A DNA stretch of 64,000 nucleotides from a virus. The notes under the pieces were generated by a model. That model worked only from the letters and a program-made list of their open reading frames with translations, was not told where the DNA came from and did not search any database. This document shows positions 32,743 through 53,631 of this stretch, piece by piece. The stretch's first letter is position 1; each line of letters begins with the position of its first letter. Location of the stretch: the IMG/VR virus record IMGVR_UViG_3300032164_000009, positions 3,004 to 67,003 of that record, one strand, 5' to 3'. A program made the translations under genes and the position numbers.

Positions 32743-35700
32743 ATGCCTACATGCACAACAAACGCCTCCGGGTTATGGTCGGCCGATGCCATTTGGTCAG
32801 TCACCGGGGCCGGCACGACGATGGGCGGGACCGATGGCGTGCTGGTTGATGGCACGTTGACGCCTACAGTTTCCCCGGTATGGACGGTATCTGCTCTGGT
32901 TGGACGGAGAATGAAATTAGGCAGTACCTGGTATTCCATTTCTGCCAACACTGCCACGGCGGCGACGATTACCAGTCCTCCCGCCAATGCCACATACACC
33001 TATCTGGTCGGCGGTCCCCCGATCGACAATGACGCGGTTGTTCTTGCCGCCCAATTTTCCATTACGATGGACGTGTCGCACTCGGGATGGACCAATGGAA
33101 TGGCCGGGGTGGTTATAACGGGCCACGCCACAACTCCCGCGATGCTTGAATTCCATGCCGCAACGACTGGTTATCTATTACTGAAGACCGGGACGACGTT
33201 ATCGGGGACGACGGTCACGAATCGCGGCCGGCTCTGGGCAAGTTCTGTTGGGTTGTGGATCGCGCCGGCGGATCGGTCTGGCGCGGCGAGTGCGGTTAGC
33301 GCGGGCGGGGTTTTCACCCCCGGCACCGCTCCAGCGTGGGGAGCGGGAAGCCTGGTCGGATCGTCGATCACGATAGCGGCGGGCACCTACGTTATCCTCA
33401 CTCACGACGCCACGAGCGTGCTGACGTGGACCGGCACTGTTCCCTCGGAGAACGCCACGGCGGGGGCATGGACGCTGAACGTGTTGCCGCTCCCGTTTGC
33501 CGATAAGGCGACGTTGGAATTCGCGGGTACGGCGGGCACTGCGAAGCTCCTCGCGAGCGACCTCGACATCGCTCTGTACTGCACGCAGCCGACGCTCGGG
33601 TCCGTGCGGACCTACGGCACGACCTTTTCGTTTACGACAAATTATGCGGTCGATAACAACCTCACGACCCCCGTGGCTCACGGTTGGGCGACTAACGGAA
33701 ACAAACCCGTCCGAGTTTCGACTTCGGGTACGCTTCCTGCTGGGCTGACGGCAGGGACGCAGTATTATGTCCGCACGGTGGGATCGACAACGACTCTATT
33801 GCTGTCAACAACGGCCTCGGATGTTGGGCTCGTAACGCTCACCGGCAACGGCACGGGCACGCATTACATTACCGAGGGGAGAATCAACGTCAGCAGTATC
33901 GCCACCAACACGATCACCCTGGCCGCCACTCACGGATGGGCGAACGCCACGGCGATCATGTTCACGTCGAGCGGTACATACCCTACCGGCATCGTCGCCA
34001 ATACGATGTACTGGGTCATCGGGGCCAGCGGTGCCACGTTGCAGTTGGCTGCTTATTCCGGCGGAACGGCGTTGACGCTAGGCACGTCATGGACCGGCAC
34101 CCTGGAAGCCTACATTGGTGGGGCAACCGCAAACGCTACAGCCGTATTAGCCGTGCTGGATGATGTATTCACCGCTGAACCAACGTGGGTGACGACGGCT
34201 GGACACAACCGCGTGGTCTTGGCCGATGCGGGGCCGGCTGATTATGACCAGCAACGGTTGACGTTGGCGACGATTACGGCGACCACGATTACACTTTCGG
34301 CTAACGTGCTTTTGGCTAAATACCCGAATGCTCGAATTTATCTGGTCGCCCGCAACATCCTCATCAAGAGCAACACGACTGCCGCGACCAATATCATCGA
34401 CTGGGTGTCCTCGACGTTCACGGGGTCGGTGTTGCAGTGTGAGATTTGGTCGGCCGCAGGAGCTGGAGTTGGCGTTACTACGTTCTACGGCTATGGCACC
34501 GGGGCCGGCACGTCGCACACGATCTCGGGCACGATCAGCGGGTGCAGCAGCGGCGTCAACGCCGGCACGTCGCACACGATCTCGGGCACGATCAGCGGGT
34601 GCAGCAGCGGCATCCGCGACAGCACGTCGAACACGTTATCCGGCACGATCAGCGGGTGCACCTACGGCGTCAGCTACGGCACGTCGCACACGGTCTCTGG
34701 CACGATCAGCGGGTGCACCTACGGCATCCGCGACAGCACGTCGAACACGTTATCCGGCACGATCAGCGGGTGCAACAACGGCACCAACGCCGGCACGTCG
34801 CACACGGTCTCTGGCACGATCAGCGGGTGCTACAACGGCATCAGCGCCGGCACGTCGCACACGGTCTCTGGCACGATCAGCGGGTGCAACAACGGCATCA
34901 GCGGCGGCACGTCGCACACGATCTCCGGCACGATCAGCGGGTGCAGCTACGGCATCTACGCCGGCACTGGCTGCCTCAAGGGCTGCCAGTTCACCGGCAA
35001 CACACAGGACATTTACCTCAACGGCGGTTGCTGGGAGGGTTGGGGCGCTGGGCTGCGGTCAACGACGCAAGTTGCCTATTACAAGCACTCCGATCTAGCC
35101 GTGGCCGACCTTCCGATCTACGTTGGAATCACGGACATCTGCGACGCGGCCGGCGCAATTCAGCTCGGCTACGTCGGCTGGTGGTGCCCTGGAGGCTATA
35201 CGAAGACGACGGCCTGGGTTTCTGGCACGCATGGTACACCGCCGATTACGCTTGCCGCTGTCCACGTCTCGACCGCCGAAGACTCCGACCGGGATTTCTG
35301 GGTCGAATTCCCGATTCTCGGCAAGTCGGGCTCCCCGATCACGGTCACGGTCTACCACAAGACCCACAACTACGTGTTTACCGTTACGGCCGCCACCGCT
35401 GCCGTAGGGGACACGTACACAAACAACGGTCAGACGTTTACGGTGTTTGCCGCAATAGCAGGCGGCACGACGTTATTGATGGCGGGCACAGGGGCTCCCG
35501 CTGCGAGTGGAAACTTGGTAAGAGTTACCGGCTCTGGTACAAATCCTATTGTATTTTCTGCTGCTTACTTAGCTTGGACGACGGCCCCGCTGATTGAGAT
35601 TTGCGATCCGAACAAGGCGTGGAAGGCCAGCGGCGAAGTGCTTGCCTCCAGTTCGGCGTTCTCCGTGGCCGATACCGATTGGCACACCGACACGGCCACC

Positions 35701-36240: not shown

Positions 36241-37412
36241 GCCTAGGTACGCTGGACAACTGGGTATCCACGGCCATCGGCCCGCCGGTTATCGGTGAGA
36301 CGATTGATCTGGATTCATGGGTGTCGAGTGCCATCAGCGCTGGACTGGTGGCGGTGAGTGGGGCCGCATCACTAATCGTTCAGAATTCGGCGTGTCTTGT
36401 CGAATCCGGAAACGTCGCACTCACCCAACATCAGGTCCTCGCAGTTCAGGCATCCAACTGCCTCATCACTTCGGGCAACGTCGTACTGGCTCAACACTAC
36501 GGGCCACTGACCGTTCAGGCCTCGGAGTGCGTAGTCGAGTCGGGCAATGTCGCCCTGGTTCAGCATCAAGCCATTGCCGTTCAGGCCTCGGAGTGCGTAG
36601 TCGAGTCGGGCAATGTCGCCCTGGTTCAGCATCAAGCGCTCGCTGTCGCGGGTGCGGAATCTGTTGTCGAATCGGAGAATGTCGGACTCATTCAGCATCA
36701 GGTCTTGGCGGTTGGCGATGCGGACTCGGCCGTCGAATCCGGTGCTCCTGTCCTTGTGCAACACTACGGGCCGTTGAGCGTCGGGGGCTGCGAATGCCTT
36801 GTCGAGTCGGGCGGTGTCATCCTGACCCAGCACCAGACTCTTTCCGCCGACAATGCGGAATCCATCTGCGAATCGCAGGGTGTCGCCCTGACACAACACC
36901 AGGCGCTCGTCATCGGTGGCGCGGAAATCGTCGTCGCCTCCAGTGCCTGCGAGTTGACCCAACACCAGACGTTGAGCGTCGATGATTCGGCTGCTGTGGT
37001 CGAGTCAGAGAGTCCCGCCTTGACGCAGCATCAGGTTTTGGCAGCGACCGATTCAGAGTCGGTTATCGAGTCAGAGTCTCCGGCGCTCACGCAACACCAG
37101 CTATTGGCGGTTGCTGATTCAGAATCCGGCGTCGAATCTGGCGAAGCGGCCCTGATCCAGCACCATGCGCTCGCGGTTCAGAATAGCGCGGTGGTTGTCG
37201 AGTCGGGCGACATTGCGCTCGTCTATCATCCAGTCTCTCTCAGCGTGCAGAATTGCCAGTGCGGCATAACTTCGGATTTAATCGCGCTGGTGCAGCATCA
37301 ATCGTTGACGGTTTCAGATGCGGACTGCCTCGTCACTTCAGGCAACGTCGTGCTTGGATTCGGCGGGCAAGGTATTGTGTTTCAACATCAATCACTTTTA
37401 CTTGCGATTTAG
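36237..37412 (+). CDS. Repetitive virion protein (about 22-aa LTQHQ.L.V...ES..V repeats)
   Basis: Many degenerate repeats, including a near-exact 66-bp tandem duplication around 36511-36637. Confidence 0.65.
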   Translation: MSLGTLDNWVSTAIGPPVIGETIDLDSWVSSAISAGLVAVSGAASLIVQNSACLVESGNVALTQHQVLAVQASNCLITSGNVVLAQHYGPLTVQASECVVESGNVALVQHQAIAVQASECVVESGNVALVQHQALAVAGAESVVESENVGLIQHQVLAVGDADSAVESGAPVLVQHYGPLSVGGCECLVESGGVILTQHQTLSADNAESICESQGVALTQHQALVIGGAEIVVASSACELTQHQTLSVDDSAAVVESESPALTQHQVLAATDSESVIESESPALTQHQLLAVADSESGVESGEAALIQHHALAVQNSAVVVESGDIALVYHPVSLSVQNCQCGITSDLIALVQHQSLTVSDADCLVTSGNVVLGFGGQGIVFQHQSLLLAI

Positions 37413-41169: not shown

Positions 41170-43275
41170 CTGAGCGACCAGCACGAATATGACCGGGAAC
41201 GCTCGCGCCGGAGACAGCAGGAATCGTCAACAAGCGGTCGAGATATCGGCCCCACGCCCCCGATTGCCGATGTTCGCCGTCGCAACCGATGCCGGCGGCT
41301 GGCCGTTTTCTGCACGACCTACAACCCGGTGGCGTTCTATTGGCATTGGAGCAATGAGCATCGCCGGGTGATTGCGGCTATCGAGCGGAGCGTCAAGGAG
41401 GGTTTGATTTTGGCGTTTGCGATGCCTAGGGGAAGCGGGAAAACGGCGATCTGCCGAATGGCGGTATTGTGGGCCGCGTCGTGGGGCCTGAGTTACTACG
41501 TCTACCTGATCGGTGCGAATGAACCGGCCGCCTTAAAAAACCTCGAAGCCGTCAAGGGCTGGATGCGAGCCCTCCATCCCTACGTCGATGACTTTCCAGA
41601 GATTTCTTGTGCGGTGGTGAAGCTCGGCAAGATCGCGCAGCGCGCCGCTGGCCAGCTTCAGAACGGCCAGCCGACCGACATTGTTTGGGAGACGAACCGA
41701 ATCGTCCTGCCCCGTGTCCAGGCCCCGCCCAATCTTCCAAAATGCGATCAGCGACCCGATGGAATGGCCGCGAGTTCGCAGGTAGTTATTGCCGTATCTG
41801 GTCTCACCGGGGAGGGCATCCGCGGCAGTTTATTTGCCGATTCGATTACAGGGGCCCTGCGGCGGCCAGACCTTATCCTGCTCGACGATCCGCAGACCGA
41901 TGAGTCGGCTAAATCGCTCCAACAGAATGCGGACCGCGAAGAGTTGATTGCGGGAGCCGTGCTCGGATTGGCTAATCCTGATAGACCGTCGGCCGTGGTG
42001 ATGCCTTGCACGGTCATTCGGCGAGGCGATATGGTTGATCGGATTCTCGATCGAAAGCGCAACCCGACGTGGCGTGGAATCCGGACGGCTTTTTTCAAGT
42101 CCATGCCTACCGACAAGGCAGCGTGGGAAGCGTATGAAGCCGAGTACCGGGAGGCCCTGGGACAGGACGTACCGGATCGGGCCCGGCTGAACCGCTACTA
42201 CCGAGAGCATCGGGCGGAACTGGATAAGGGGGCCGAAGTCTCATGGATTCAGCGCAAGACGTGGGAAGTGTCGGGGGTTCAGCATGGGATGCACCTCTTT
42301 TTTCAGAAGCGCTCGACATTTTTTGCGGAGTACCAGAACGATCCGCAAGAAGAGCGGAGCCCCCATTCCGTTTTGACGGCTGCTATCGTAATGAGTAAGG
42401 CGGCTGGATTGCCGTGCGGTACTATGCCACTCAATTGCGAGCACGTCGCGGCTTATTGTGACGTTCACGGGCGAGTACTCTACTGGCTGGTATCGGCGTG
42501 GTCGCAAAATTTTGGCGGTGGAGTGATCGACTACGGCACCTGGCCGCGACAGAACCGTGCATACTTTTCCCAGGAGTCGGCCCCGGTCGTCTTGGAAGAC
42601 ATCTATCCCGGTTTAGTCGATGATGCCCGAATCACGGCTGGCCTTCAGGCCGTGGCAGACGTATTGCTGGCGCGAAAGTTCACTCGTGAAGATGGGGCGG
42701 AATTCAAGATTGGAAAACTTTTGTTTGATGCCAAGTGGGGCGAGAAAAATGCCCTGGTCAAAGCATTCTGTCGGCGGCACCCCGCCTATCCGGAAATAGT
42801 TTTCCCCGCGCAGGGCTTAGGGATTGGGGCAAGCTCGAAGCCTTTCAATGAATACCGGCCGGAGCATGGGGCACGGATTGGCGAGCATTGGCGTATCCCG
42901 CCAGCAGTGAAGGGCGACCGTTGGGTGACCATTGACACGAATTGGTGGAAGAGTATCGCCGCGAGCCGGTTAGCGATGGCCATCGGCACGCCCGGCGGCT
43001 GGCAACTGTTCGGGCGAGACCCGCAAGAACACGAACTATTCGCGGACCATTGCATCGCTGAGGAGCCTGTCGAAACTACGGCAAAGGGCCGGACTGTTGA
43101 CGAATGGAAGTGGAAACCGGGGCGGCCGGACAATCATTGGTGGGACTGTTTAGTGGGGTCTGCGGTGGCTGGGTCGATGCTTGGCGTGCCGATGGCCGGG
43201 GGGAAGGTACGGAAGGCCATAGCCGATCCGATGCAGCGACCTTCGGCGGCGGACGTGGCGAGAGGGGGAAAGTGA
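41170..43275 (+). CDS. Terminase large subunit (GpA-like); probable CTG start at 41170
   Basis: MPRGSGKT (Walker A); RPDLILLDDPQT; EYQN.P; DNHWWDC; frame open upstream of the called start 41329, giving SGRDIGP.PP.AD..RR. Confidence 0.85.
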   Translation: MSDQHEYDRERSRRRQQESSTSGRDIGPTPPIADVRRRNRCRRLAVFCTTYNPVAFYWHWSNEHRRVIAAIERSVKEGLILAFAMPRGSGKTAICRMAVLWAASWGLSYYVYLIGANEPAALKNLEAVKGWMRALHPYVDDFPEISCAVVKLGKIAQRAAGQLQNGQPTDIVWETNRIVLPRVQAPPNLPKCDQRPDGMAASSQVVIAVSGLTGEGIRGSLFADSITGALRRPDLILLDDPQTDESAKSLQQNADREELIAGAVLGLANPDRPSAVVMPCTVIRRGDMVDRILDRKRNPTWRGIRTAFFKSMPTDKAAWEAYEAEYREALGQDVPDRARLNRYYREHRAELDKGAEVSWIQRKTWEVSGVQHGMHLFFQKRSTFFAEYQNDPQEERSPHSVLTAAIVMSKAAGLPCGTMPLNCEHVAAYCDVHGRVLYWLVSAWSQNFGGGVIDYGTWPRQNRAYFSQESAPVVLEDIYPGLVDDARITAGLQAVADVLLARKFTREDGAEFKIGKLLFDAKWGEKNALVKAFCRRHPAYPEIVFPAQGLGIGASSKPFNEYRPEHGARIGEHWRIPPAVKGDRWVTIDTNWWKSIAASRLAMAIGTPGGWQLFGRDPQEHELFADHCIAEEPVETTAKGRTVDEWKWKPGRPDNHWWDCLVGSAVAGSMLGVPMAGGKVRKAIADPMQRPSAADVARGGK

Positions 43276-45652: not shown

Positions 45653-46303
45653 ATGATGTACGAAGCGAAGTTTTCCCTGACCGGCGACATGCCCCTCATT
45701 ATGCACCAGGACGATGTTGAGGCGTCCGATACCTTAATGGCCTGGCGCAAGGCCCCCGAGAACAAAAACCTGAGCGTGGCTGGCGATGATCGCAGCCCGC
45801 CCTGGACGTGGCAGACCTACCTCTATTCGGACGGAGAGAACGTCACGATCCCCGCCCAAAATCTTATGGTTGCCATCCGGCAGGCCGGCACTCAGATTAT
45901 CCTGAAGAAACAGAAGACCTACAAGGAGATCAGCCAGAGTGGGTTGTTGATTCCGACTGAGTATCTGGACTTCAGCACGGCCGGGCGGAAGGTCGAGATT
46001 GGCGAGATTGAGGCGGTGCGAGATTTGCCGTTTCAAGAGCAATCGGAGGCGGCCCGCAAACTCGGCTTTCGACTATTCATCAAGCGCGCCGTCATCGGCA
46101 AGGCCAAGCACGTTCGGGTCCGGCCCCGCTTCGATGTGTGGGAACTGGCTGGCACGATTCGCGTTTTGGTCCCTGAGATCACTTGGGACGTGCTTGGCAA
46201 GTTGTTTGAACTGGCCGGGCGGGTCGGGCTTTGCGACTGGCGGCCGGGGTGTAAGACGCCGGGGCCCTACGGGATGTTCACGGCGAAAGTGACAAAATGC
46301 TAG
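45653..46303 (+). CDS. Stand-alone RAMP/Cas7-like RNA-binding protein (effector candidate of the GGY-NN array)
   Basis: N-terminal beta strand LTG..PLIMH; IPAQNL...IR.A; R.RPRF..W; C-terminal Gly-rich loop GRVGLCDWRPG...GPYGMF; AAAGGAG RBS; no other cas genes nearby. Confidence 0.75.
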   Translation: MMYEAKFSLTGDMPLIMHQDDVEASDTLMAWRKAPENKNLSVAGDDRSPPWTWQTYLYSDGENVTIPAQNLMVAIRQAGTQIILKKQKTYKEISQSGLLIPTEYLDFSTAGRKVEIGEIEAVRDLPFQEQSEAARKLGFRLFIKRAVIGKAKHVRVRPRFDVWELAGTIRVLVPEITWDVLGKLFELAGRVGLCDWRPGCKTPGPYGMFTAKVTKC

Positions 46304-47024
46304 GGTTCGGCATTGTTGGGTCAGGTACGGCCCGGTATGGCTCGGTAGAGCAAGGTCCGGTCTGGCAAGGCTGGGCACGGCCCGGCAGAGCGTGGTGAGG
46401 TAAGGTTCGGCGTGGCAAGGGCGCAGAGCGCAGGGAATAGGGAGAATTAAACCAATCTCGGCTCGGTAGGGCAAGGCGTGGCGTTGTCAGGCAAGGCATG
46501 GTCGGGCTTGGTAGTGTGCGGCCGGGTCCGGCGCGGTCCGGTCGGGCGCGGCAAGGCGAGGGCGCAGAGCACACGGAACGAGAAACGAAATAAGTTATGT
46601 ACGGTGCGGTTCGGTCCGGCGTGGTCTGGCAGAGCACGGTGCGGTGCGGCCGGGTGGGGTTCGGCACGGCAGAGCCTGGTGAGGTCCGGCAAGCCTCGGC
46701 TGAGCTAGGCATGGCCGGGCCAGGCAAGGCAAGGGCACAGAGTGCAAGGAGCGGAGAAAACGAAACAACTATGGTTCGGTACGGTTCGGCCTGGCTGGCC
46801 TCGGCATGGCATGGTGGGGTCCGGTTCGGTAGGGTCCGGCTTGGCAGAGCAAGGCGCGGCACGGCACGGCAAGGCGGGGCGAGGGTGCAGAGCACACGGA
46901 ACGAGAAACCAAATAAGCTAAGGTCGGGCAGGGCTTGGTCCGGCTTGGTCCGGCAAGGTTAGGCATGGCATGGTCGAGCGCGGTGCGGCGCGGCAGAGCA
47001 TGGTTTGGCGAGGGTACTGAGTAC
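46304..47024 (+). ncRNA. Array of five GGY-NN pentamer guide units, each ending in a small hairpin, joined by A-rich linkers
   Basis: Tracts 46304-46418 (23 pentamers), 46460-46559 (20), 46598-46732 (27), 46773-46882 (22), 46922-47011 (18). Confidence 0.85.
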
Positions 47025-47053
47025 AAAACTTTAACCAGTGCAGAGGAGTGAAA

Positions 47054-47548
47054 ATGTTCAAGTCAGATTCGGAAAGCAGAGCGGCGGGCGAGCGACTTTG
47101 GCGGACGTTCGGCGACAAGTCGCGGGGCGAGACGATCACTTGGTCGAACCTTGAGGCGGTCATGGGCCGGACCCGGATTGAACCGGGCGGTTGGCATATC
47201 ATCCGGCGTTTTCGTAAGCGGCTTCTCCGAGAGCGCCGGATTGTCACGCTTCCGGCCGATACCGTGGGCTTGCGCTTGTTGACTCACCAGGAGACAGCCC
47301 GAGAGGTGCCGGCGTTGCGACAACGGCGGGCATATCGACAGATCAACCGATGCCTAAAGGAAACCGCAACCGTCGATGGAACCGGCTTGACGGATCACGA
47401 GCGGAAGGTACTGGCGGTGCAACGGCACAATCTCGCCTTTCAGCGGCTTCAGATCGGGCGGTCGCGCCGGCAGTTGGTGCAGGGGACGAAGAAAACCGAG
47501 GTCAATCCGTTACGGAAAGAGAAGGCCGCCGAATTAGTGGGAGCATAA
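47054..47548 (+). CDS. Basic accessory protein embedded in the guide array (winged-helix-like)
   Basis: GAGGAG RBS; Arg-rich; lies between guide units 5 and 6. Confidence 0.65.
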   Translation: MFKSDSESRAAGERLWRTFGDKSRGETITWSNLEAVMGRTRIEPGGWHIIRRFRKRLLRERRIVTLPADTVGLRLLTHQETAREVPALRQRRAYRQINRCLKETATVDGTGLTDHERKVLAVQRHNLAFQRLQIGRSRRQLVQGTKKTEVNPLRKEKAAELVGA

Positions 47549-47557
47549 CTGCGATTG

Positions 47558-47660
47558 GGCTGGGCAAGGCTAGGCGCGGCAGGGCCCGGCTTGGCAGAGC
47601 GTGGCAGGGTTCGGCGGGGCCGGGTGCGGTTCGGCTACGCATGGCAAGGGGACTGAGTCC
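47558..47660 (+). ncRNA. Sixth GGY-NN guide unit
   Basis: 18 pentamers followed by GG-GGAC-TGA-GTCC hairpin. Confidence 0.8.
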
Positions 47661-47741
47661 ATGGTGACTTGATATTGAAAACAATCTGACCAGCAACACA
47701 CCTGGGGTCCGCGAGCCCTGGGACCGTGGGGCGTAACGGAG

Positions 47742-47776
47742 CGGCGCGTCGGAGCCGACACCGACGCGCCGTTTTT
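47742..47776 (+). terminator. Terminator-like hairpin with U-tract
   Basis: CGGCGCGTCGG/CCGACGCGCCG stem plus TTTTT. Confidence 0.6.
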
Positions 47777-47810
47777 GTTGCGCCTGCTGGTCGGTCTTGA
47801 GAAACGAAAC

Positions 47811-48218: not shown

Positions 48219-48416
48219 ATGGCAGATGACCTCTCCGACCTGATTGAAACCGCCGTCGAGGCCCCGCAGTCCGTGACTGTGGCCGGCGGCAGCGTTGCAT
48301 CTCGCCCCCTCCCCGAGTTGATCGAGGCGGATAAGTATCTGGCTGCCAAGCGGGCCCGCACCAAGAACCACTGCGGCCTCATCTTCCGCACCCTTGAACC
48401 CGGAGGTTGCGGGTGA
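48219..48416 (+). CDS. Head-tail joining protein (gpW-like)
   Basis: Small gene directly before the portal; P.SVTV.G.SV...L.ELIEADKYL. Confidence 0.7.
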   Translation: MADDLSDLIETAVEAPQSVTVAGGSVASRPLPELIEADKYLAAKRARTKNHCGLIFRTLEPGGCG

Positions 48417-49945
48417 ACCTGTTTGGTCGAATTCGCCGTGCATTCTCCCGGGCCCCGGCAGTCCGTCCCTCGCCTGAGATAGGCCGCCCCGTTCGCGGAC
48501 GCTATGACGCCGCGGGCTATGGGACCGAGACCAAGAATATCTGGCTCAACGCGGACGCCCTCGATGCTGACGCCGCGAATTCTCTGGCCGTGCGAAAGAA
48601 CCTTCGCCAGCGCTCACGATACGAGCGGACCAACAACGGGCACGCATCGGGGATTGTCGGGACGCAGGCAAACTACGTCATCGGAACCGGGCCGAAGTTG
48701 CGGATGCAGACCGGTTCAACCGGGTTCAATCGGATGATTGAGGCGAGGTGGGGCAGTTGGTGTGCGGCCACCCACTTCATGCGGAAACTCCGCACTCTCA
48801 ATAAGGCCAAGACCGGCGACGGCGAAGCGTTTGGTCATTTTCGCACCAACCCTGGTCTAGCCGATCCGGTGAAGTTGGATCTCCGCACCTTGGAGTGCGA
48901 CCAGATTACGGCACCGGCGTTGACCGCGATCAACGATGAAAACTACATCGACGGTATCCGCTTCGATGAATGGGGCAACGTCATCAGTTATGAGGTGCTC
49001 GACTGCCATCCTGGGGCCCTCTGGTCTTGGATCGGGGCCCGCGACGGATACCAGACGATCCCCGCCAAGTTCATGGCCCATTGGTTCAACGAAGATCGCA
49101 GCGGGCAGCATCGCGGGGTTCCTGAGATCACGCCGACTCTGAATTTGTTCGGCACGGGTCGGCGATACCGCGAAGCGGTTGTTGCGGCGGCTGAGACGGC
49201 GGCCGACTTCTCGGCGATTGTCAACATGGGCTCGCCGGATGATACCGGCCCTGATCAACTCCGACCATTCAGTACCTTTCCAATCGACAAGCGGACGTTG
49301 ATGGTCAGTCCGGCCGGATCGACCACCACTCAACTCAAGCCCGAGCAGCCGGCGACTAGCTACGTTGACTTCACACGCTCGATGCTTTGCGAAGAGGCCC
49401 GACCGCTGAACATGCCGTACAACATCGCGGCGTGCGATTCCAGCGACTACAGCTTCAGCGGCGGGCGGCTGGATCACCTGACCTATTACGTGAGCGTGGG
49501 CGTCGAGCGACAAGATTGCGAAACCCTCGTCTTGGAGAAAGCCTTCGCGCTCTGGTTTGCCGAGGCAATTCTCCGCTACGGCTGGACAGTTCCGGCCGAA
49601 CCCGCCCCCCGGCACTCATGGGGCTGGCCGGCAATGCCGCAGATCGACCAGGAAAAGACGGCGAACGCTCGCAAGACCTCTATGGGCCTGGGCATTCAAT
49701 CTCCCAGCCGCGTTGGCGACGAAGACGGCTACGACGATGAGGACGAGTTGGAAGTGCTGGCCACGGATCATGGCGTAACCGTCGAGGAGATGCGGGAGAT
49801 TCGCCGCGAGTCGATCTTCGCCCAGTCCGCGGCCCCTCCGGTCAAGACGAATACCGACGGAGATCAACCCGCCTCAGACAAGAGCCTGCCGCCGTCCAAG
49901 GTCGCACCCAAACGCAATGGTGCCACACGAGGAGCGTTCGTATGA
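48413..49945 (+). CDS. Portal protein, lambda family
   Basis: YDAA; LR.RSRYE..NN; DGEAF; IDGI.FDEWG; GQHRGVP; D.SDYSFSGGRLD. Confidence 0.9.
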   Translation: MNLFGRIRRAFSRAPAVRPSPEIGRPVRGRYDAAGYGTETKNIWLNADALDADAANSLAVRKNLRQRSRYERTNNGHASGIVGTQANYVIGTGPKLRMQTGSTGFNRMIEARWGSWCAATHFMRKLRTLNKAKTGDGEAFGHFRTNPGLADPVKLDLRTLECDQITAPALTAINDENYIDGIRFDEWGNVISYEVLDCHPGALWSWIGARDGYQTIPAKFMAHWFNEDRSGQHRGVPEITPTLNLFGTGRRYREAVVAAAETAADFSAIVNMGSPDDTGPDQLRPFSTFPIDKRTLMVSPAGSTTTQLKPEQPATSYVDFTRSMLCEEARPLNMPYNIAACDSSDYSFSGGRLDHLTYYVSVGVERQDCETLVLEKAFALWFAEAILRYGWTVPAEPAPRHSWGWPAMPQIDQEKTANARKTSMGLGIQSPSRVGDEDGYDDEDELEVLATDHGVTVEEMREIRRESIFAQSAAPPVKTNTDGDQPASDKSLPPSKVAPKRNGATRGAFV

Positions 49946-52101
49946 AAAAGCACGCGGCACGCCACGTCAAGGCCCGCATGATTCGAGCCGCCCAAAAATG
50001 CGGAATGATCCAGGCCGAAGCCGTCGCCGTCGAGTGGATTCAAGCCGCCGAAGGCGAATCCGCCGACAAGCCGATTCGCTTCACCATGACGGCCTACACC
50101 GGCGGGCCGATGCGAGTGGACGGTTACTACGATCCGGTCGTTATCGATCTGGAAGGTCTGGAAGCCAAGCCGCCTTTCCCGAGTCTTCGTGACCATGACA
50201 TGGGGCAGATCGTCGGGCACATCGACGAGGCCGAGATCGGGTCGGTGGTCAAGGTTGGCGGCATCATCTCCGGGGCCAATGAATTCGCCGCTCAGGTTGT
50301 GAGCAGTTCCAAAGCCGGCTTCCCCTGGAAAGCCTCGATCGGCGCGATGCCCGCCGCGAACGGGTTGGAGTTCATCGGCGACGGTATCAGTACGAAAGTC
50401 AATGGCAAGTCGTTTAAGGGACCGCTCATCATCGCCCGCAAGGCCACGGTGCGTGAAGTCTCATTTGTGGCGATTGGTGCAGACGCCAAAACCTCAGTCA
50501 AAGTTGCGGCGTCCGCCGCGAATTCCAAGGAGATCGAAAACATGAAACCCGAACTGCAAACGTACATCGAGGCGATGGGACTGGTCGTGAGCGAACTTCG
50601 CGACGACACGATCGCCAAGATCAAGACCAAGTACGATGCCGACCTGAAGGCCGCAACGGAGGCCGCCGCAATCAAGGCGAAGGCCACGGAAAAGCCGCCG
50701 GAGGCGGTCAAGGTCGAACCCCCGGCGTTCGATCTGCGATCGACGATCCTCTGCTACGAGAAGCACGTCGCCATCATCCAGGCCAAGGCCGCCGAGTATG
50801 CCGGCAAGATCGACGCCGCCGCGCTGGCTCCGGTCATGGCCAAGGCCCAACAGGACGCGGCGCAGTTGAAACTCCAGGCGCTCAAGGAAGAGTGGTCGCC
50901 GGTCAAACTCGAAGCGGCTTACGTCATGCCCGCGGCGATCTTCGCTGCGGACCTGATGGGCCTGGAGCGACCCAAGGGTCCGGCCATTCACGGGAGTCCG
51001 CGGGACTTGCAACCGCAGGTTATCGAGGCGGCCTTTGCTCAGTCCTGCGGACTCAAGCAACCCGAAAAGCATTACAAGCCGGAGATTCTCGAAGCGGCTG
51101 ACAAGCACTTCCGCAACATCGGCATCCAAGAGGTGCTCCTGATCCACGCCCAGGCCGCCGGCTATGCAGGCCGCCAGAAGATCACCGTCGGCAATCTCCG
51201 CGAGGTTATGAATGCCGCCTTTTCGACACACACCCTCACCACGCTGCTGACGACTACGGGCAACAAGATTCTGCTCGAAGGGTTCAACCAGATCCCGCAG
51301 TCATGGCGGGAGATTGCCGAGATCGGAAACGTCGTGGATTTCAAGACCGTGACGCGCTTCCGCCTGACGGCCGACATGCAATACGAAGAGGTTGGCGCGG
51401 CTGGCGAACTCAAGCACGGCACGGTCGGCCAAGAGACCTACACGATGGCCGCGAAGACCTACGGCAAGATGGCGGCCTTCACTCGCCAAGACATTATCAA
51501 CGATGACTTGGGTGCGCTGAACGCGGTCCGAAGCCGTCTTGGTCTCGGCGGTGCGATCAAGTTGCAGAATGTCTTCTGGACGGTCTGGATCGATAACACC
51601 GCCTTCTTTACTGGAGCCCGGGCGAATCTCGTTACGGGAAGCACCCTGGGCGACACGGGACTCGCAACCGCCATCGCAGCCTTCCGCAACATGGCGGGAC
51701 CGGATGGGAACAAGTTGAACCTGGAGCCGGCCGTCTTGCTCGTTCCGCCTTCCTTGGAAGCCACGGCCCGGAAGTTCTACGTCAGCCAGGAACTCCGCGA
51801 CACGAGCGCAAGCACGCGACTGGCGACGGCGAACATCTACTACAACCGCTTCCGCCCGGTCGTGGTGCCTGAGTTGGAAACAGCGTCCTTCGGCGGTGCC
51901 TACAGCGCCTCGACCTGGTATCTGCTCGCCGCTCCGACGGTTCTTGCGACCGCCGTGATGTGCTTCCTCGACGGCCAACAGGCTCCGACGATCGAGAGCA
52001 GTGACGCGGACTTCGATACGCTCGGAATCCAGTTCCGGGCGTATCACGACTTCGGGGCGGCGTTCTCCGAGTATCGTGCCGGCGTCAAGGCGACGGCATG
52101 A
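49942..52101 (+). CDS. Prohead protease-scaffold-major capsid fusion protein
   Basis: AYTGG...DH...GFPWKASIG...EVSFV protease domain; DFK, GELKHG, KTYG, IINDDLGA and YHDFG capsid motifs. Confidence 0.9.
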   Translation: MKKHAARHVKARMIRAAQKCGMIQAEAVAVEWIQAAEGESADKPIRFTMTAYTGGPMRVDGYYDPVVIDLEGLEAKPPFPSLRDHDMGQIVGHIDEAEIGSVVKVGGIISGANEFAAQVVSSSKAGFPWKASIGAMPAANGLEFIGDGISTKVNGKSFKGPLIIARKATVREVSFVAIGADAKTSVKVAASAANSKEIENMKPELQTYIEAMGLVVSELRDDTIAKIKTKYDADLKAATEAAAIKAKATEKPPEAVKVEPPAFDLRSTILCYEKHVAIIQAKAAEYAGKIDAAALAPVMAKAQQDAAQLKLQALKEEWSPVKLEAAYVMPAAIFAADLMGLERPKGPAIHGSPRDLQPQVIEAAFAQSCGLKQPEKHYKPEILEAADKHFRNIGIQEVLLIHAQAAGYAGRQKITVGNLREVMNAAFSTHTLTTLLTTTGNKILLEGFNQIPQSWREIAEIGNVVDFKTVTRFRLTADMQYEEVGAAGELKHGTVGQETYTMAAKTYGKMAAFTRQDIINDDLGALNAVRSRLGLGGAIKLQNVFWTVWIDNTAFFTGARANLVTGSTLGDTGLATAIAAFRNMAGPDGNKLNLEPAVLLVPPSLEATARKFYVSQELRDTSASTRLATANIYYNRFRPVVVPELETASFGGAYSASTWYLLAAPTVLATAVMCFLDGQQAPTIESSDADFDTLGIQFRAYHDFGAAFSEYRAGVKATA

Positions 52102-52162
52102 CCATAGGCGGGCCAGATGCCCGAAACATTACCCGCAACTAGTTTTTTGAGGAGACTTGAAA

Positions 52163-53560: not shown

Positions 53561-53631
53561 CCTTCCTCCTTGCTACCGGGGGCGGGTTTTGCTTCCAACC
53601 CGCCCCCGGCCGCTCTTTTTTTGGAAACAAC

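What the first reader, a model, noticed from the sequence alone, without database searches (positions are those of the whole stretch)
46304..46882. Four guide units decode to major-capsid gene segments of related phages, skipping every codon wobble base
Seen (hand decoding): I reverse-complemented each tract's NN series and read each dinucleotide as codon positions 1-2, choosing among two-fold ambiguous residues. Unit 1 gives xTDFSTLGVQFRGFLDIGVCQMD versus own capsid DADFDTLGIQFRAYHDFGAAFSE (52003-52071; 10/23 dinucleotides identical). Unit 2 gives xLARGAGRALNRIFWTTFLD versus RLGLGGAIKLQNVFWTVWID (51535-51594; 5/20). Unit 3 gives xxWRIYHDFGSSLVDPRAAVLSTG versus IQFRAYHDFGAAFSEYRAGVKATA (52027-52098; 11/24). 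Unit 4 gives xPFVVAFLNGLEGPIIEQSEVD versus ATAVMCFLDGQQAPTIESSDAD (51946-52011; 10/22). All four land ungapped, in codon phase and on the same strand of one gene. Inference: the guides pair NN-skip-1 with the sense strand or mRNA of capsid genes of competing relatives. This would make them insensitive to third-position synonymous escape, while mismatches protect this phage's own capsid gene. Units 1 and 3 overlap in target position but differ, implying at least two different target phages.
Basis: partly seen in the sequence, partly recalled or inferred. Interest (0 to 1): 0.98.

Follow-up and report, generated by a model that had tools for sequence, protein, structure and literature searches.

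The report
Phage VIPR guide RNAs aimed at capsid genes
This phage carries a recently described VIPR system, in which a small Cas7-like protein uses guide RNAs made of GGY-NN repeats, and four of its six guides spell out, two bases per codon, pieces of the major capsid gene of other phages.

Summary
Unit 2's own-gene match (5/20) is at chance level, but the homologous site is its best hit in relatives. In 355 related capsid genes the four units land at one fixed offset in 283, 175, 283 and 281 genes. Skips 0, 2 and 3, shuffled orders and another register give background only.

The locus is a VIPR system, described in three 2026 bioRxiv preprints. The upstream ORF folds as a Cas7-type RAMP and is homologous to the gene I take to be phage SUSP1's vipr. 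There are six GGY/NN units with hairpin tails and an embedded accessory gene. The 1-nt skip, the wobble rationale and competing phages as targets are all published.

New here are a Planctomycetota-phage clade, long guides (18-26 repeats) and convergence on a protease-capsid gene. No target with at least 80% NN match was found among 334 distinct capsid sequences (best 61-65%). Verdict: new member of a known kind.

The parts
45653..46303 (+). vipr gene: a 216-aa Cas7-like RAMP protein. Its stop codon directly abuts vrRNA unit 1.
   Evidence: No Pfam family; PHROG 4652, unknown function. 899 homologues at E<=0.001. AlphaFold2 model on the 50-sequence alignment A1: pLDDT 89.9, pTM 0.85. Best-ranked Foldseek PDB hits are CRISPR effector complexes (Csm, type VII), E 7e-6, TM about 0.5. 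In VIA-align the top 19 rows are all CRISPR effector-complex entries, several named Csm3, Cmr4 or Cas7-11, Z 8.1-10.4. hhalign of A1 against SUSP1 agp039: probability 97.1%, E 5.4e-11, 185 columns.
46304..46459 (+). vrRNA unit 1: 23 GGYNN pentamers (46304-46418), then the tail GG-GCGC-AGA-GCGC and an A-rich stretch.
   Evidence: The rc(NN) series hits 52003 at 10/23. Best elsewhere 14/23, in L116, L403, L405 and L406.
46460..46602 (+). vrRNA unit 2: 20 pentamers (46460-46559) plus tail. Its hairpin carries one C.A mismatch.
   Evidence: Own gene 5/20 at 51535. Best 13/20, in L149, L144, L148 and L261-L263 at the homologous site.
46603..46772 (+). vrRNA unit 3: 26 pentamers (46603-46732) plus tail GCAC-AGA-GTGC.
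   Evidence: 11/26 at 52027. Best 16/26, in L160, L181, L314, L316 and L328.
46773..46921 (+). vrRNA unit 4: 22 pentamers (46773-46882) plus tail GTGC-AGA-GCAC.
   Evidence: 10/22 at 51946. Best 14/22, in L381 and L385.
46922..47047 (+). vrRNA unit 5: 18 pentamers (46922-47011) plus tail GTAC-TGA-GTAC. Target unknown.
   Evidence: Only background matches anywhere: at most 9/18.
47048..47548 (+). Candidate vap (vipr-accessory) gene, 166 aa, embedded between units 5 and 6.
   Evidence: No Pfam family; PHROG 5926, unknown function. The Atlas structure search gives winged-helix-type families only at TM 0.32-0.46, which is a lead and not a result. No BLASTP similarity to SUSP1 agp038.
47558..47690 (+). 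vrRNA unit 6: 18 pentamers (47558-47647) plus tail GGAC-TGA-GTCC. Target unknown.
   Evidence: Background matches only: at most 9/18.
49942..52101 (+). The phage's own head-maturation protease / major capsid protein fusion gene. It is the homologue of the guides' targets, not itself a target.
   Evidence: Pfam Phage_capsid_4 1.7e-37 and Mu-like_gpT; PHROG 4523 'major head and protease protein' 3.8e-63.
51535..51594 (+). Own-gene segment homologous to the unit 2 target.
   Evidence: 5/20 NN. The homologous site is the best hit in 175 of 355 relatives.
51946..52011 (+). Own-gene segment homologous to the unit 4 target.
   Evidence: 10/22 NN, the window-wide best hit. Same offset in 281 of 355 relatives.
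52003..52071 (+). Own-gene segment homologous to the unit 1 target.
   Evidence: 10/23 NN, the window-wide best hit. Same offset in 283 of 355 relatives.
52027..52104 (+). Own-gene segment homologous to the unit 3 target. It runs through the stop codon.
   Evidence: 11/26 NN, the window-wide best hit. Same offset in 283 of 355 relatives.

Best explanation
Window 45653-47690 is a VIPR (Viral Interference Programmable Repeat) locus of a 67-kb phage. The phage's capsid family is found mainly in Planctomycetota MAG contigs (genomes binned from metagenomes).

Proposed mechanism:
- The 216-aa Vipr protein, a minimal Cas7-like RAMP, is expected to polymerise along each of six vrRNAs.
- It sequesters the GGY of every pentamer and presents the NN dinucleotides.
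- The NN series pairs with double-stranded DNA, two bases paired and one skipped. In a coding target the skipped base is the codon wobble base.
- vrRNAs 1-4 are written against four segments of the major-capsid part of a protease-capsid fusion gene: three overlapping segments in the last 53 codons and one about 190 codons from the end.
- They fit the phage's own gene at only 25-45% of NN and fit other lineages of the same capsid family better. The intended targets are therefore capsid genes of competing phages or resident prophages, and binding would silence them.

Shown here: the anatomy; the RAMP fold and the homology to the candidate SUSP1 vipr gene; the skip-1, wobble-phased, order-dependent relation to capsid genes; the absence of a self-target.

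Taken from the preprints, not tested here: filament formation, DNA binding and repression.

Inferred: that capsid-gene silencing of competitors is the function here, and which phages are hit.
For: Skip rule and phase.
- Whole-window scan and shuffles.
- Fixed homologous offsets in 283, 175, 283 and 281 of 355 capsid genes.
- Signal at skip 1 only, with background at other skips, in shuffles and in another register.

Protein.
- Model pLDDT 89.9.
- Best-ranked Foldseek matches are Csm and type VII CRISPR effector complexes, E 7e-6.
- VIA-align Z up to 10.4; the top 19 rows are CRISPR effector-complex entries.
- hhalign to the SUSP1 gene that lies between two GGYNN tracts: probability 97.1%, E 5.4e-11.

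Family context.
- 14 of 15 viral contigs encoding a Vipr homologue carry GGYNN units beside the gene.
- 44 of 56 distinct tails form a hairpin of at least 4 bp right after the tract, with 23 distinct stem sequences.

Target reading.
- Own gene: at most 11/26.
- Other capsids: up to 14/23, 13/20, 16/26 and 14/22.
- Units 2-4 match better in the 40-55% identity classes than in closer relatives.
- A relative's vrRNA (L028) matches this phage's protease-capsid gene on the antisense strand at 13/17, in wobble phase, with 0/100 shuffles reaching that.

Literature.
- VIPR rule, assays and phage-versus-phage role: 10.64898/2026.04.26.720920 (Results, Discussion and two Methods sections read).
- Filament and triplex: abstract of 10.64898/2026.04.26.720927.
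- Codon periodicity blocking escape: abstract of 10.64898/2026.10.15.759431.
Against: No natural target reaches the 80% NN threshold that the first preprint uses.
- Among 334 distinct capsid C-domains, the best are 61%, 65%, 62% and 64%.
- At protein level, the best compatibility among 235 homologues is 14/23, 14/20, 15/26 and 14/22.
- Exact gapped patterns of unit 3 gave 0 hits in IMG/VR (18 dinucleotides) and 0 in the JGI metagenome contigs (12 dinucleotides).

Other points against or untested.
- Units 5 and 6 have no identifiable target.
- Expression of the units is untested; no RNA run was listed.
- The vap candidate has no detectable similarity to SUSP1's neighbouring gene.
- The guides are longer (18-26 repeats) than the 9-16 the preprint reports, and each tail is a short hairpin, not the pseudoknot described for the SUSP1 clade.
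- All four capsid guides are complementary to the sense strand, which an mRNA-targeting model would also predict.
Confidence: 0.85

Rival explanations
1. The guides act on RNA. The Vipr-vrRNA complex pairs with capsid mRNA, of competitors or of the phage itself, and blocks translation or triggers decay. It does not bind DNA.
For: All four capsid-directed units of this window are complementary to the sense strand, which equals the mRNA. The nearest structural relatives of the protein are backbone subunits of RNA-targeting type III and type VII complexes.
Against: In the studied VIPR systems, binding is to double-stranded DNA and both strands are targeted and silenced (10.64898/2026.04.26.720920, Results; abstract of 10.64898/2026.04.26.720927). 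In this clade, guides of relatives map to the antisense strand of the same gene family: L028 at 13/17 and L039 at 12/16. Four guides on one strand is a small sample, about 1 in 8 by chance.
Confidence: 0.06
2. The guides are relics. They were written against capsid genes of phages that have since diverged or vanished. The 61-65% matches are what is left, and units 1-4 no longer silence anything.
For: No match of 80% or more in any collection searched. Each tract holds degenerate pentamers such as AGC, TGT or GCC.
Against: GGY is kept in most pentamers of every unit. The tails keep their hairpins through compensatory changes. The vipr gene is intact and well conserved. The collections sample phages of Planctomycetota thinly: each search returned only the best 80 of more than 530-600 relatives. 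A low-depth variant contig changes NN and Y but restores a GG, which looks like a maintained scaffold.
Confidence: 0.07
3. Self-regulation. The partial complementarity to the phage's own capsid gene is the point, for example to time or dampen late gene expression.
For: Units 1, 3 and 4 have their best match in the whole window in the phage's own capsid gene, and together they tile its last 53 codons.
Against: The own gene is matched less well (10/23, 5/20, 11/26, 10/22) than many foreign capsid genes. A guide selected to pair with its own gene should match it best. The first preprint found no self-target at 80% or more in any clade it examined (Methods).
Confidence: 0.02

Closest known systems
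VIPR systems (Vipr + vap + vrRNAs), as described for Escherichia phage SUSP1 and a Pseudomonas fulva prophage (bioRxiv 10.64898/2026.04.26.720920; structures in 10.64898/2026.04.26.720927; satellite conflict in 10.64898/2026.10.15.759431)
   Same: - A phage-borne, small RAMP protein homologous to the candidate SUSP1 vipr gene.
- Tandem GGY/NN pentamer RNA units on both sides of the accessory gene.
- A conserved 3' tail.
- A 1-nt skip with the wobble base skipped.
- No self-target.
- Guides that point to genes of other mobile elements which have homologues in the carrier phage.
   Different: - 18-26 repeats per guide, against the reported 9-16.
- The tail is a 4-bp hairpin with a triloop plus an A-rich stretch, not the pseudoknot reported for the SUSP1 clade.
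- The accessory gene shows no similarity to SUSP1's neighbouring gene.
- The host range is Planctomycetota-associated phages.
- Four of six guides converge on the major capsid gene. The texts I read name recombinase, lysis-lysogeny regulators and other VIPR loci as targets. 'Capsid' occurs 0 times in the first paper's main text, and in the third paper it is never named as a vrRNA target in the 12 passages shown. Supplementary target tables were not visible.
- The VIPR type (I-VII) could not be assigned.
Class 1 CRISPR-Cas backbone filaments (Cas7/Csm3/Cmr4 on crRNA; Cascade, Csm, type VII)
   Same: A RAMP fold. Protein subunits bind a guide RNA at a fixed period and interrupt pairing periodically. 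The period-6 comparison is drawn in the first preprint's Results.
   Different: No CRISPR repeat-spacer array, and no other cas gene among the 10 ORFs I scanned around the locus. The guide information is 2 of every 5 nt, against 5 of every 6. The target is read 2 of every 3 nt. A single small protein does the job instead of a multi-subunit effector.
TRAP (trp RNA-binding attenuation protein) bound to GAG/UAG triplets separated by 2-3 nt (recalled from general knowledge, no call)
   Same: A protein oligomer grips a conserved triplet at a 5-nt period and leaves the 2-nt spacers free.
   Different: TRAP is a closed ring with an unrelated fold. Its spacers carry no guide information, and it regulates its own operon's RNA. 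This was my first idea on seeing the sequence. I dropped it once the NN series proved to be informative and the protein proved to be a RAMP.

Membership tests
VIPR | A Vipr protein: a small, single-RRM RAMP related to Cas5/6/7 | tested here: met
   Model pLDDT 89.9. The best-ranked Foldseek PDB hits are Csm and type VII CRISPR effector complexes, E 7e-6. The VIA-align top 19 rows are CRISPR effector-complex entries, Z 8.1-10.4.
VIPR | Homology to an experimentally studied Vipr (phage SUSP1) | tested here: met
   hhalign of A1 against SUSP1 agp039: probability 97.1%, E 5.4e-11, 185 columns, with a shared C-terminal GDWRP...G.F motif. I took agp039 to be vipr because it lies between two GGYNN tracts in NC_028808.2. 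The paper's own gene labels were not visible to me. The accession number was recalled, and the record's title confirmed it.
VIPR | vrRNAs made of tandem GGY/NN (YNNGG) pentamers flanking the genes | tested here: met
   Six units of 18-26 pentamers. The same is seen in 14 of 15 viral contigs that encode a Vipr homologue.
VIPR | A conserved structured 3' tail after each repeat tract | tested here: met
   GG plus a 4-bp stem and a triloop in 5 of the 6 window units; unit 2 has one mismatch. The stems covary (GCGC, GCAC/GTGC, GTGC/GCAC, GTAC, GGAC/GTCC). In all, 44 of 56 distinct tails form such a hairpin, with 23 distinct stems. The hairpin is thermodynamically weak on its own: it is in the MFE structure of 4 of 6 tails, and no z-score is significant. 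Its shape differs from the SUSP1 pseudoknot.
VIPR | 1-nt skip rule, with the skip base on the codon wobble position | tested here: met
   Signal at skip 1 only. All four sites start at codon position 1 (coordinates; phase).
VIPR | No self-target at 80% NN or more | tested here: met
   The best self-match outside the array is 11/26, or 42%.
VIPR | Identifiable natural target with at least 80% NN match (the preprint's criterion for calling a target, not a criterion for membership) | tested here: not met
   Best matches are 14/23, 13/20, 16/26 and 14/22 among 334 distinct capsid sequences. Exact patterns gave 0 hits. Each search returned only the best 80 of several hundred relatives, so the sampling is incomplete.
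VIPR | A vap accessory gene with a DNA-related function | tested here: inconclusive
   A 166-aa ORF sits inside the array. It has no Pfam family and falls in a PHROG of unknown function. Winged-helix leads reach only TM 0.32-0.46. No similarity to SUSP1 agp038.
VIPR | vrRNAs are expressed and co-purify with Vipr; the complex binds dsDNA and represses transcription | not testable with these tools
   No RNA run was listed for the locus. These points need bench work.
VIPR | Assignment to one of the seven VIPR types | not testable with these tools
   Types rest on a Vipr phylogeny and on supplementary data (Methods) that I could not see.
CRISPR-Cas | A repeat-spacer array with identical direct repeats of about 25-40 nt, plus adaptation genes | tested here: not met
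   Tandem Repeats Finder shows only period-5, -10, -20 and -25 rows here. No Rfam CRISPR repeat family reached a meaningful score. None of the 10 neighbouring ORFs matches a cas family. The rest of the window was not scanned for cas genes.

The most novel reading that the evidence does not exclude
The long guides of this clade (18-26 repeats) may not be aimed at one perfectly matching rival. They may be mismatch-tolerant, near-consensus guides that silence a whole family of capsid genes. Those genes are carried by phages and prophages found in Planctomycetota MAG contigs. This would explain three observations:
- each guide matches hundreds of divergent capsid genes at about 45-65%;
- no guide matches any gene at 80% or more;
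- the phage's own gene sits at the low end.

If true, VIPR filaments would tolerate far more NN mismatch than the 80% rule of thumb suggests, and guide length would trade specificity for breadth.
Probability: 0.1. Interest if true: 0.6.

Novelty: new member of a known kind. Interest (0 to 1): 0.35.

Why it matters
This is an independent, purely computational confirmation of the VIPR code (2 of 5 guide bases reading 2 of 3 target bases). The confirmation comes from a phage lineage far from the Escherichia and Pseudomonas systems in which the code was worked out.

It extends the known target repertoire to an essential structural gene, the major capsid protein. It shows guides about twice as long as those reported. 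It also points to a large, untapped VIPR clade: 899 Vipr homologues at E<=0.001.

It does not open a new kind of biology. The mechanism, the wobble logic and the phage-versus-phage role are already in print as preprints.

Tried and rejected
Ideas dropped.
- TRAP-like triplet-binding ring or G-quadruplex repeats. These were my first ideas from the GGY period of 5. I dropped them when the NN order proved informative and the protein proved to be a RAMP.
- Coding on the minus strand (ORF 46278-46895). This ORF is open only because GGYNN rarely makes stop codons; it was not pursued.
- Rfam: only a chance-level hit (SOX2OT, E 0.35, 14.5 bits against a gathering score of 70).

Steps that failed or added little.
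- The single-sequence AlphaFold model of the Vipr candidate failed (pLDDT 34.5). It was repeated with alignment A1.
- The six closest capsid relatives in IMG/VR carry no pentamer arrays.
- tblastn of Vipr against 50,697 phage records found only Gordonia phage Trine (2 records of the same phage; 25.6% identity, E 1e-3) and not SUSP1. Profile comparison was needed to link SUSP1.

Target hunt, all negative at the 80% level.
- 12-dinucleotide core in metagenome contigs: 0 hits.
- All 56 units against 21 loci plus the window: one hit of 10/15 only.
- 70 called units against 374 sources (3.55 Mb): top hit 13/17.
- Hill-climbing from the best-matching capsids L160, L149, L164 and L116 raised only unit 4, from 13 to 14 of 22.
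- Unfused capsid proteins of 158-506 aa: at most 14/20 at protein level.

Expression and read laying.
- No RNA holder was listed for the locus.
- Laying Logan contigs of four DNA runs gave mostly short pieces that cross-map between repeat tracts. Only two long pieces were usable.

Not used: the search of protein representatives, complex prediction.

Not seen: supplementary tables of the three preprints were closed. They may list capsid targets or this clade's type.
Full report
What is there. Between the large terminase (41329-43275) and the portal gene (48407-49945) of a 67,003-base single-contig virus record lies a 216-codon ORF (45653-46303). Its stop codon abuts a run of pentamers of the form GGYNN. 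The run is organised in five units of 23, 20, 26, 22 and 18 pentamers (46304-47011). Each unit ends in GG, a 4-bp hairpin with a 3-nt loop and an A-rich stretch. A 166-codon ORF follows (47048-47548), and then a sixth unit of 18 pentamers (47558-47647) with the same kind of tail. A few pentamers deviate from GGY (AGC, TGT, GCC, CGC). All six units end in GGC[AG]A just before the tail.

Checking the observation. I extracted the NN of every pentamer, reverse-complemented each series and slid it over the whole window, on both strands, with 0, 1, 2 or 3 skipped target bases. These hits appear only at skip 1 and only on the + strand. All three lie in the last 160 bases of ORF 49942-52101, and all start at codon position 1. 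Order-shuffled series reached these window-wide maxima in 10, 4 and 21 of 300 trials. That three independent best hits fall into one 160-base stretch, in one frame and on one strand, is far beyond chance. This last statement is my estimate from the number of positions scanned, not a computed p-value. Unit 2's claimed site (51535, 5/20) is not above chance in this window, where its best hit is 9/20 at 53567.

Relatives settle it. ORF 49942-52101 is a head-protease/major-capsid fusion (Pfam Phage_capsid_4 1.7e-37; PHROG 4523 3.8e-63). I fetched related capsid genes from IMG/VR, JGI metagenome contigs and GTDB genomes. In 355 of them, the best hit per gene of units 1, 2, 3 and 4 falls at one fixed offset from the gene end in 283, 175, 283 and 281 genes. 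One shuffled series each gave 32, 14, 13 and 27. The mean best match per gene is 10.8, 8.7, 12.3 and 10.8 at skip 1. Skips 0, 2 and 3, 20 shuffles and a control that reads YN in place of NN give 6.5-8.0. Units 5 and 6 never rise above background.

What it is. A literature search for pentanucleotide repeats and guide RNA led to bioRxiv 10.64898/2026.04.26.720920. I read its Results, Discussion and two Methods sections. The paper describes VIPR systems with these features:
- a small, ancestral RAMP protein (Vipr);
- an accessory gene (vap);
- vrRNAs made of 9-16 YNNGG repeats plus a structured tail;
- recognition of double-stranded DNA by the NN dinucleotides, with one target base skipped;
- the skipped base usually being the codon wobble base;
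- natural targets in competing phages and satellites.
A second preprint reports the filament and an R-loop triplex (abstract only). A third shows that codon periodicity blocks escape in a phage-satellite conflict (abstract, one Methods section and passages).

Membership, tested here.
- The 216-aa protein has no Pfam family, but it has 899 homologues at E<=0.001.
- Folded with a 50-sequence alignment, it gives a confident model (pLDDT 89.9). The single-sequence attempt had failed.
- Its best-ranked Foldseek matches in the PDB are Csm and type VII CRISPR effector complexes (E 7e-6). The 19 best VIA-align rows are all CRISPR effector-complex entries (Z 8.1-10.4).
- In the SUSP1 genome (NC_028808.2) I found GGYNN tracts on either side of genes agp039 and agp038. 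The profile of my family aligns to agp039 with probability 97.1% and E 5.4e-11 over 185 columns.
- Of 15 IMG/VR contigs that encode a homologue, 14 carry GGYNN units next to the gene.
- 44 of 56 distinct tails can form the hairpin, with 23 different stem sequences. This is compensatory variation.
- The accessory ORF remains uncharacterised.

The targets. The phage's own capsid gene matches at 43%, 25%, 42% and 45% of NN. Among 334 distinct capsid C-domains the best matches are 14/23, 13/20, 16/26 and 14/22, that is 61-65%. Different units prefer different lineages: unit 1 L116, unit 2 L149, unit 3 L160, unit 4 L381/L385. Units 1 and 3 overlap on the target but differ. For units 2-4 the match is better in capsids that are 40-55% identical to the phage's own capsid domain than in closer relatives. 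Such capsids are common in contigs of Planctomycetota MAGs. In every alignment I printed, the one to three positions next to the tail never match. They may belong to the handle, not to the guide. Leaving them out raises the best fractions to about 67-76%; that range is my own arithmetic.

No target reaches the 80% used in the preprint. Exact gapped patterns of unit 3 found nothing. Protein-level compatibility peaks at 14/20. Each collection search returned only the best 80 of more than 530-600 relatives, so this absence is weak evidence.

Support from the other side. A vrRNA of a related contig (L028, 17 pentamers) matches this phage's protease-capsid gene on the antisense strand at 13/17, with nine consecutive matches and the skip base on the wobble position. 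None of 100 shuffles reached that. Another (L039, 16 pentamers) matches the antisense strand of four capsid genes at 12/16. So this gene family is a recurrent VIPR target in the clade, and both strands are used. That fits DNA targeting better than mRNA targeting.

Verdict. The phenomenon is the VIPR system, already described in 2026 preprints, including the wobble-skip rationale. What this window adds is a new, large clade in phages associated with Planctomycetota, guides of 18-26 repeats, a simpler tail, and convergence of four guides on the major capsid gene. The actual target phages remain unidentified.

Noticed in passing
L028:2327-2411 (metagenome contig, capsid 54% identical) against window 50454-50504, minus strand: A vrRNA of a related phage matches this phage's protease-capsid gene on the antisense strand at 13/17 NN. 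Nine of the matches are consecutive and the skip base is on the wobble position. 0 of 100 shuffles reached this. It is the best match of any foreign unit to the window, and this window is that unit's best match among 374 sources.
   Followed up: partly
L028:2258-3263: This contig's pentamer tracts lack hairpin tails. They are separated by a recurring GGAAA-GGCTG-GC junction and follow each other directly. This is a different array architecture, possibly the 'staggered' kind mentioned in the first preprint.
   Followed up: no
L039:1085-1164: A 16-pentamer unit matches the antisense strand of capsid genes in L317, L305, L089 and L053 at 12/16. It sits at one fixed offset in 189 of 355 capsid genes, although one shuffle also gave 100 genes.
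   Followed up: partly
L375:2498-3190 (Gordonia phage Trine, MH271318.1): Trine gp41 is 25.6% identical to the window's Vipr (E 1e-3). A 12-pentamer GGYNN tract starts 58 bases after it, inside what the record annotates as CDS gp40. This is a probable VIPR locus in an actinophage, with the guide annotated as coding.
   Followed up: partly
window 46338-46367 (unit 1, pentamers 7-13): A 298-base contig from another sediment run (X3, depth 4.5) differs from the window at 7 places, all inside unit 1. Four are at NN positions, two are C/T exchanges at the Y position, and one is A to G, which turns the degenerate AGC pentamer into GGC. There are no differences in the vipr 3' end, the tail or the start of unit 2. 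It is a single low-depth contig, so this is tentative (positions worked out by hand).
   Followed up: partly
window, units 1, 3, 4, 5, 6: All nine AGC pentamers follow an NN that ends in G (AG seven times, TG once, CG once). This gives GGCAGAGC, which resembles the GCAGAGC of the tail hairpins of units 1-4. The meaning is unknown.
   Followed up: no
L190:1360, L191:1288, L193:1360, L195:1276: Phages of the L160-like capsid clade carry a short, imperfect pentamer tract (11-12 units) about 1.6 kb upstream of the capsid gene. Its NN series matches many relatives at 8/11 at one homologous place. It may be a coding region that merely resembles the repeat, or an orphan vrRNA.
   Followed up: no
window 47742-47780: A GC-rich inverted repeat followed by a run of T, about 50 bases after the tail of unit 6. 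It looks like the terminator of the VIPR transcription unit (read).
   Followed up: no
window 34504-34967 and 36471-36700: Tandem repeats of 57 bases (8.1 copies, 87% matches) and 66 bases (2.5-2.9 copies) elsewhere in the phage.
   Followed up: no
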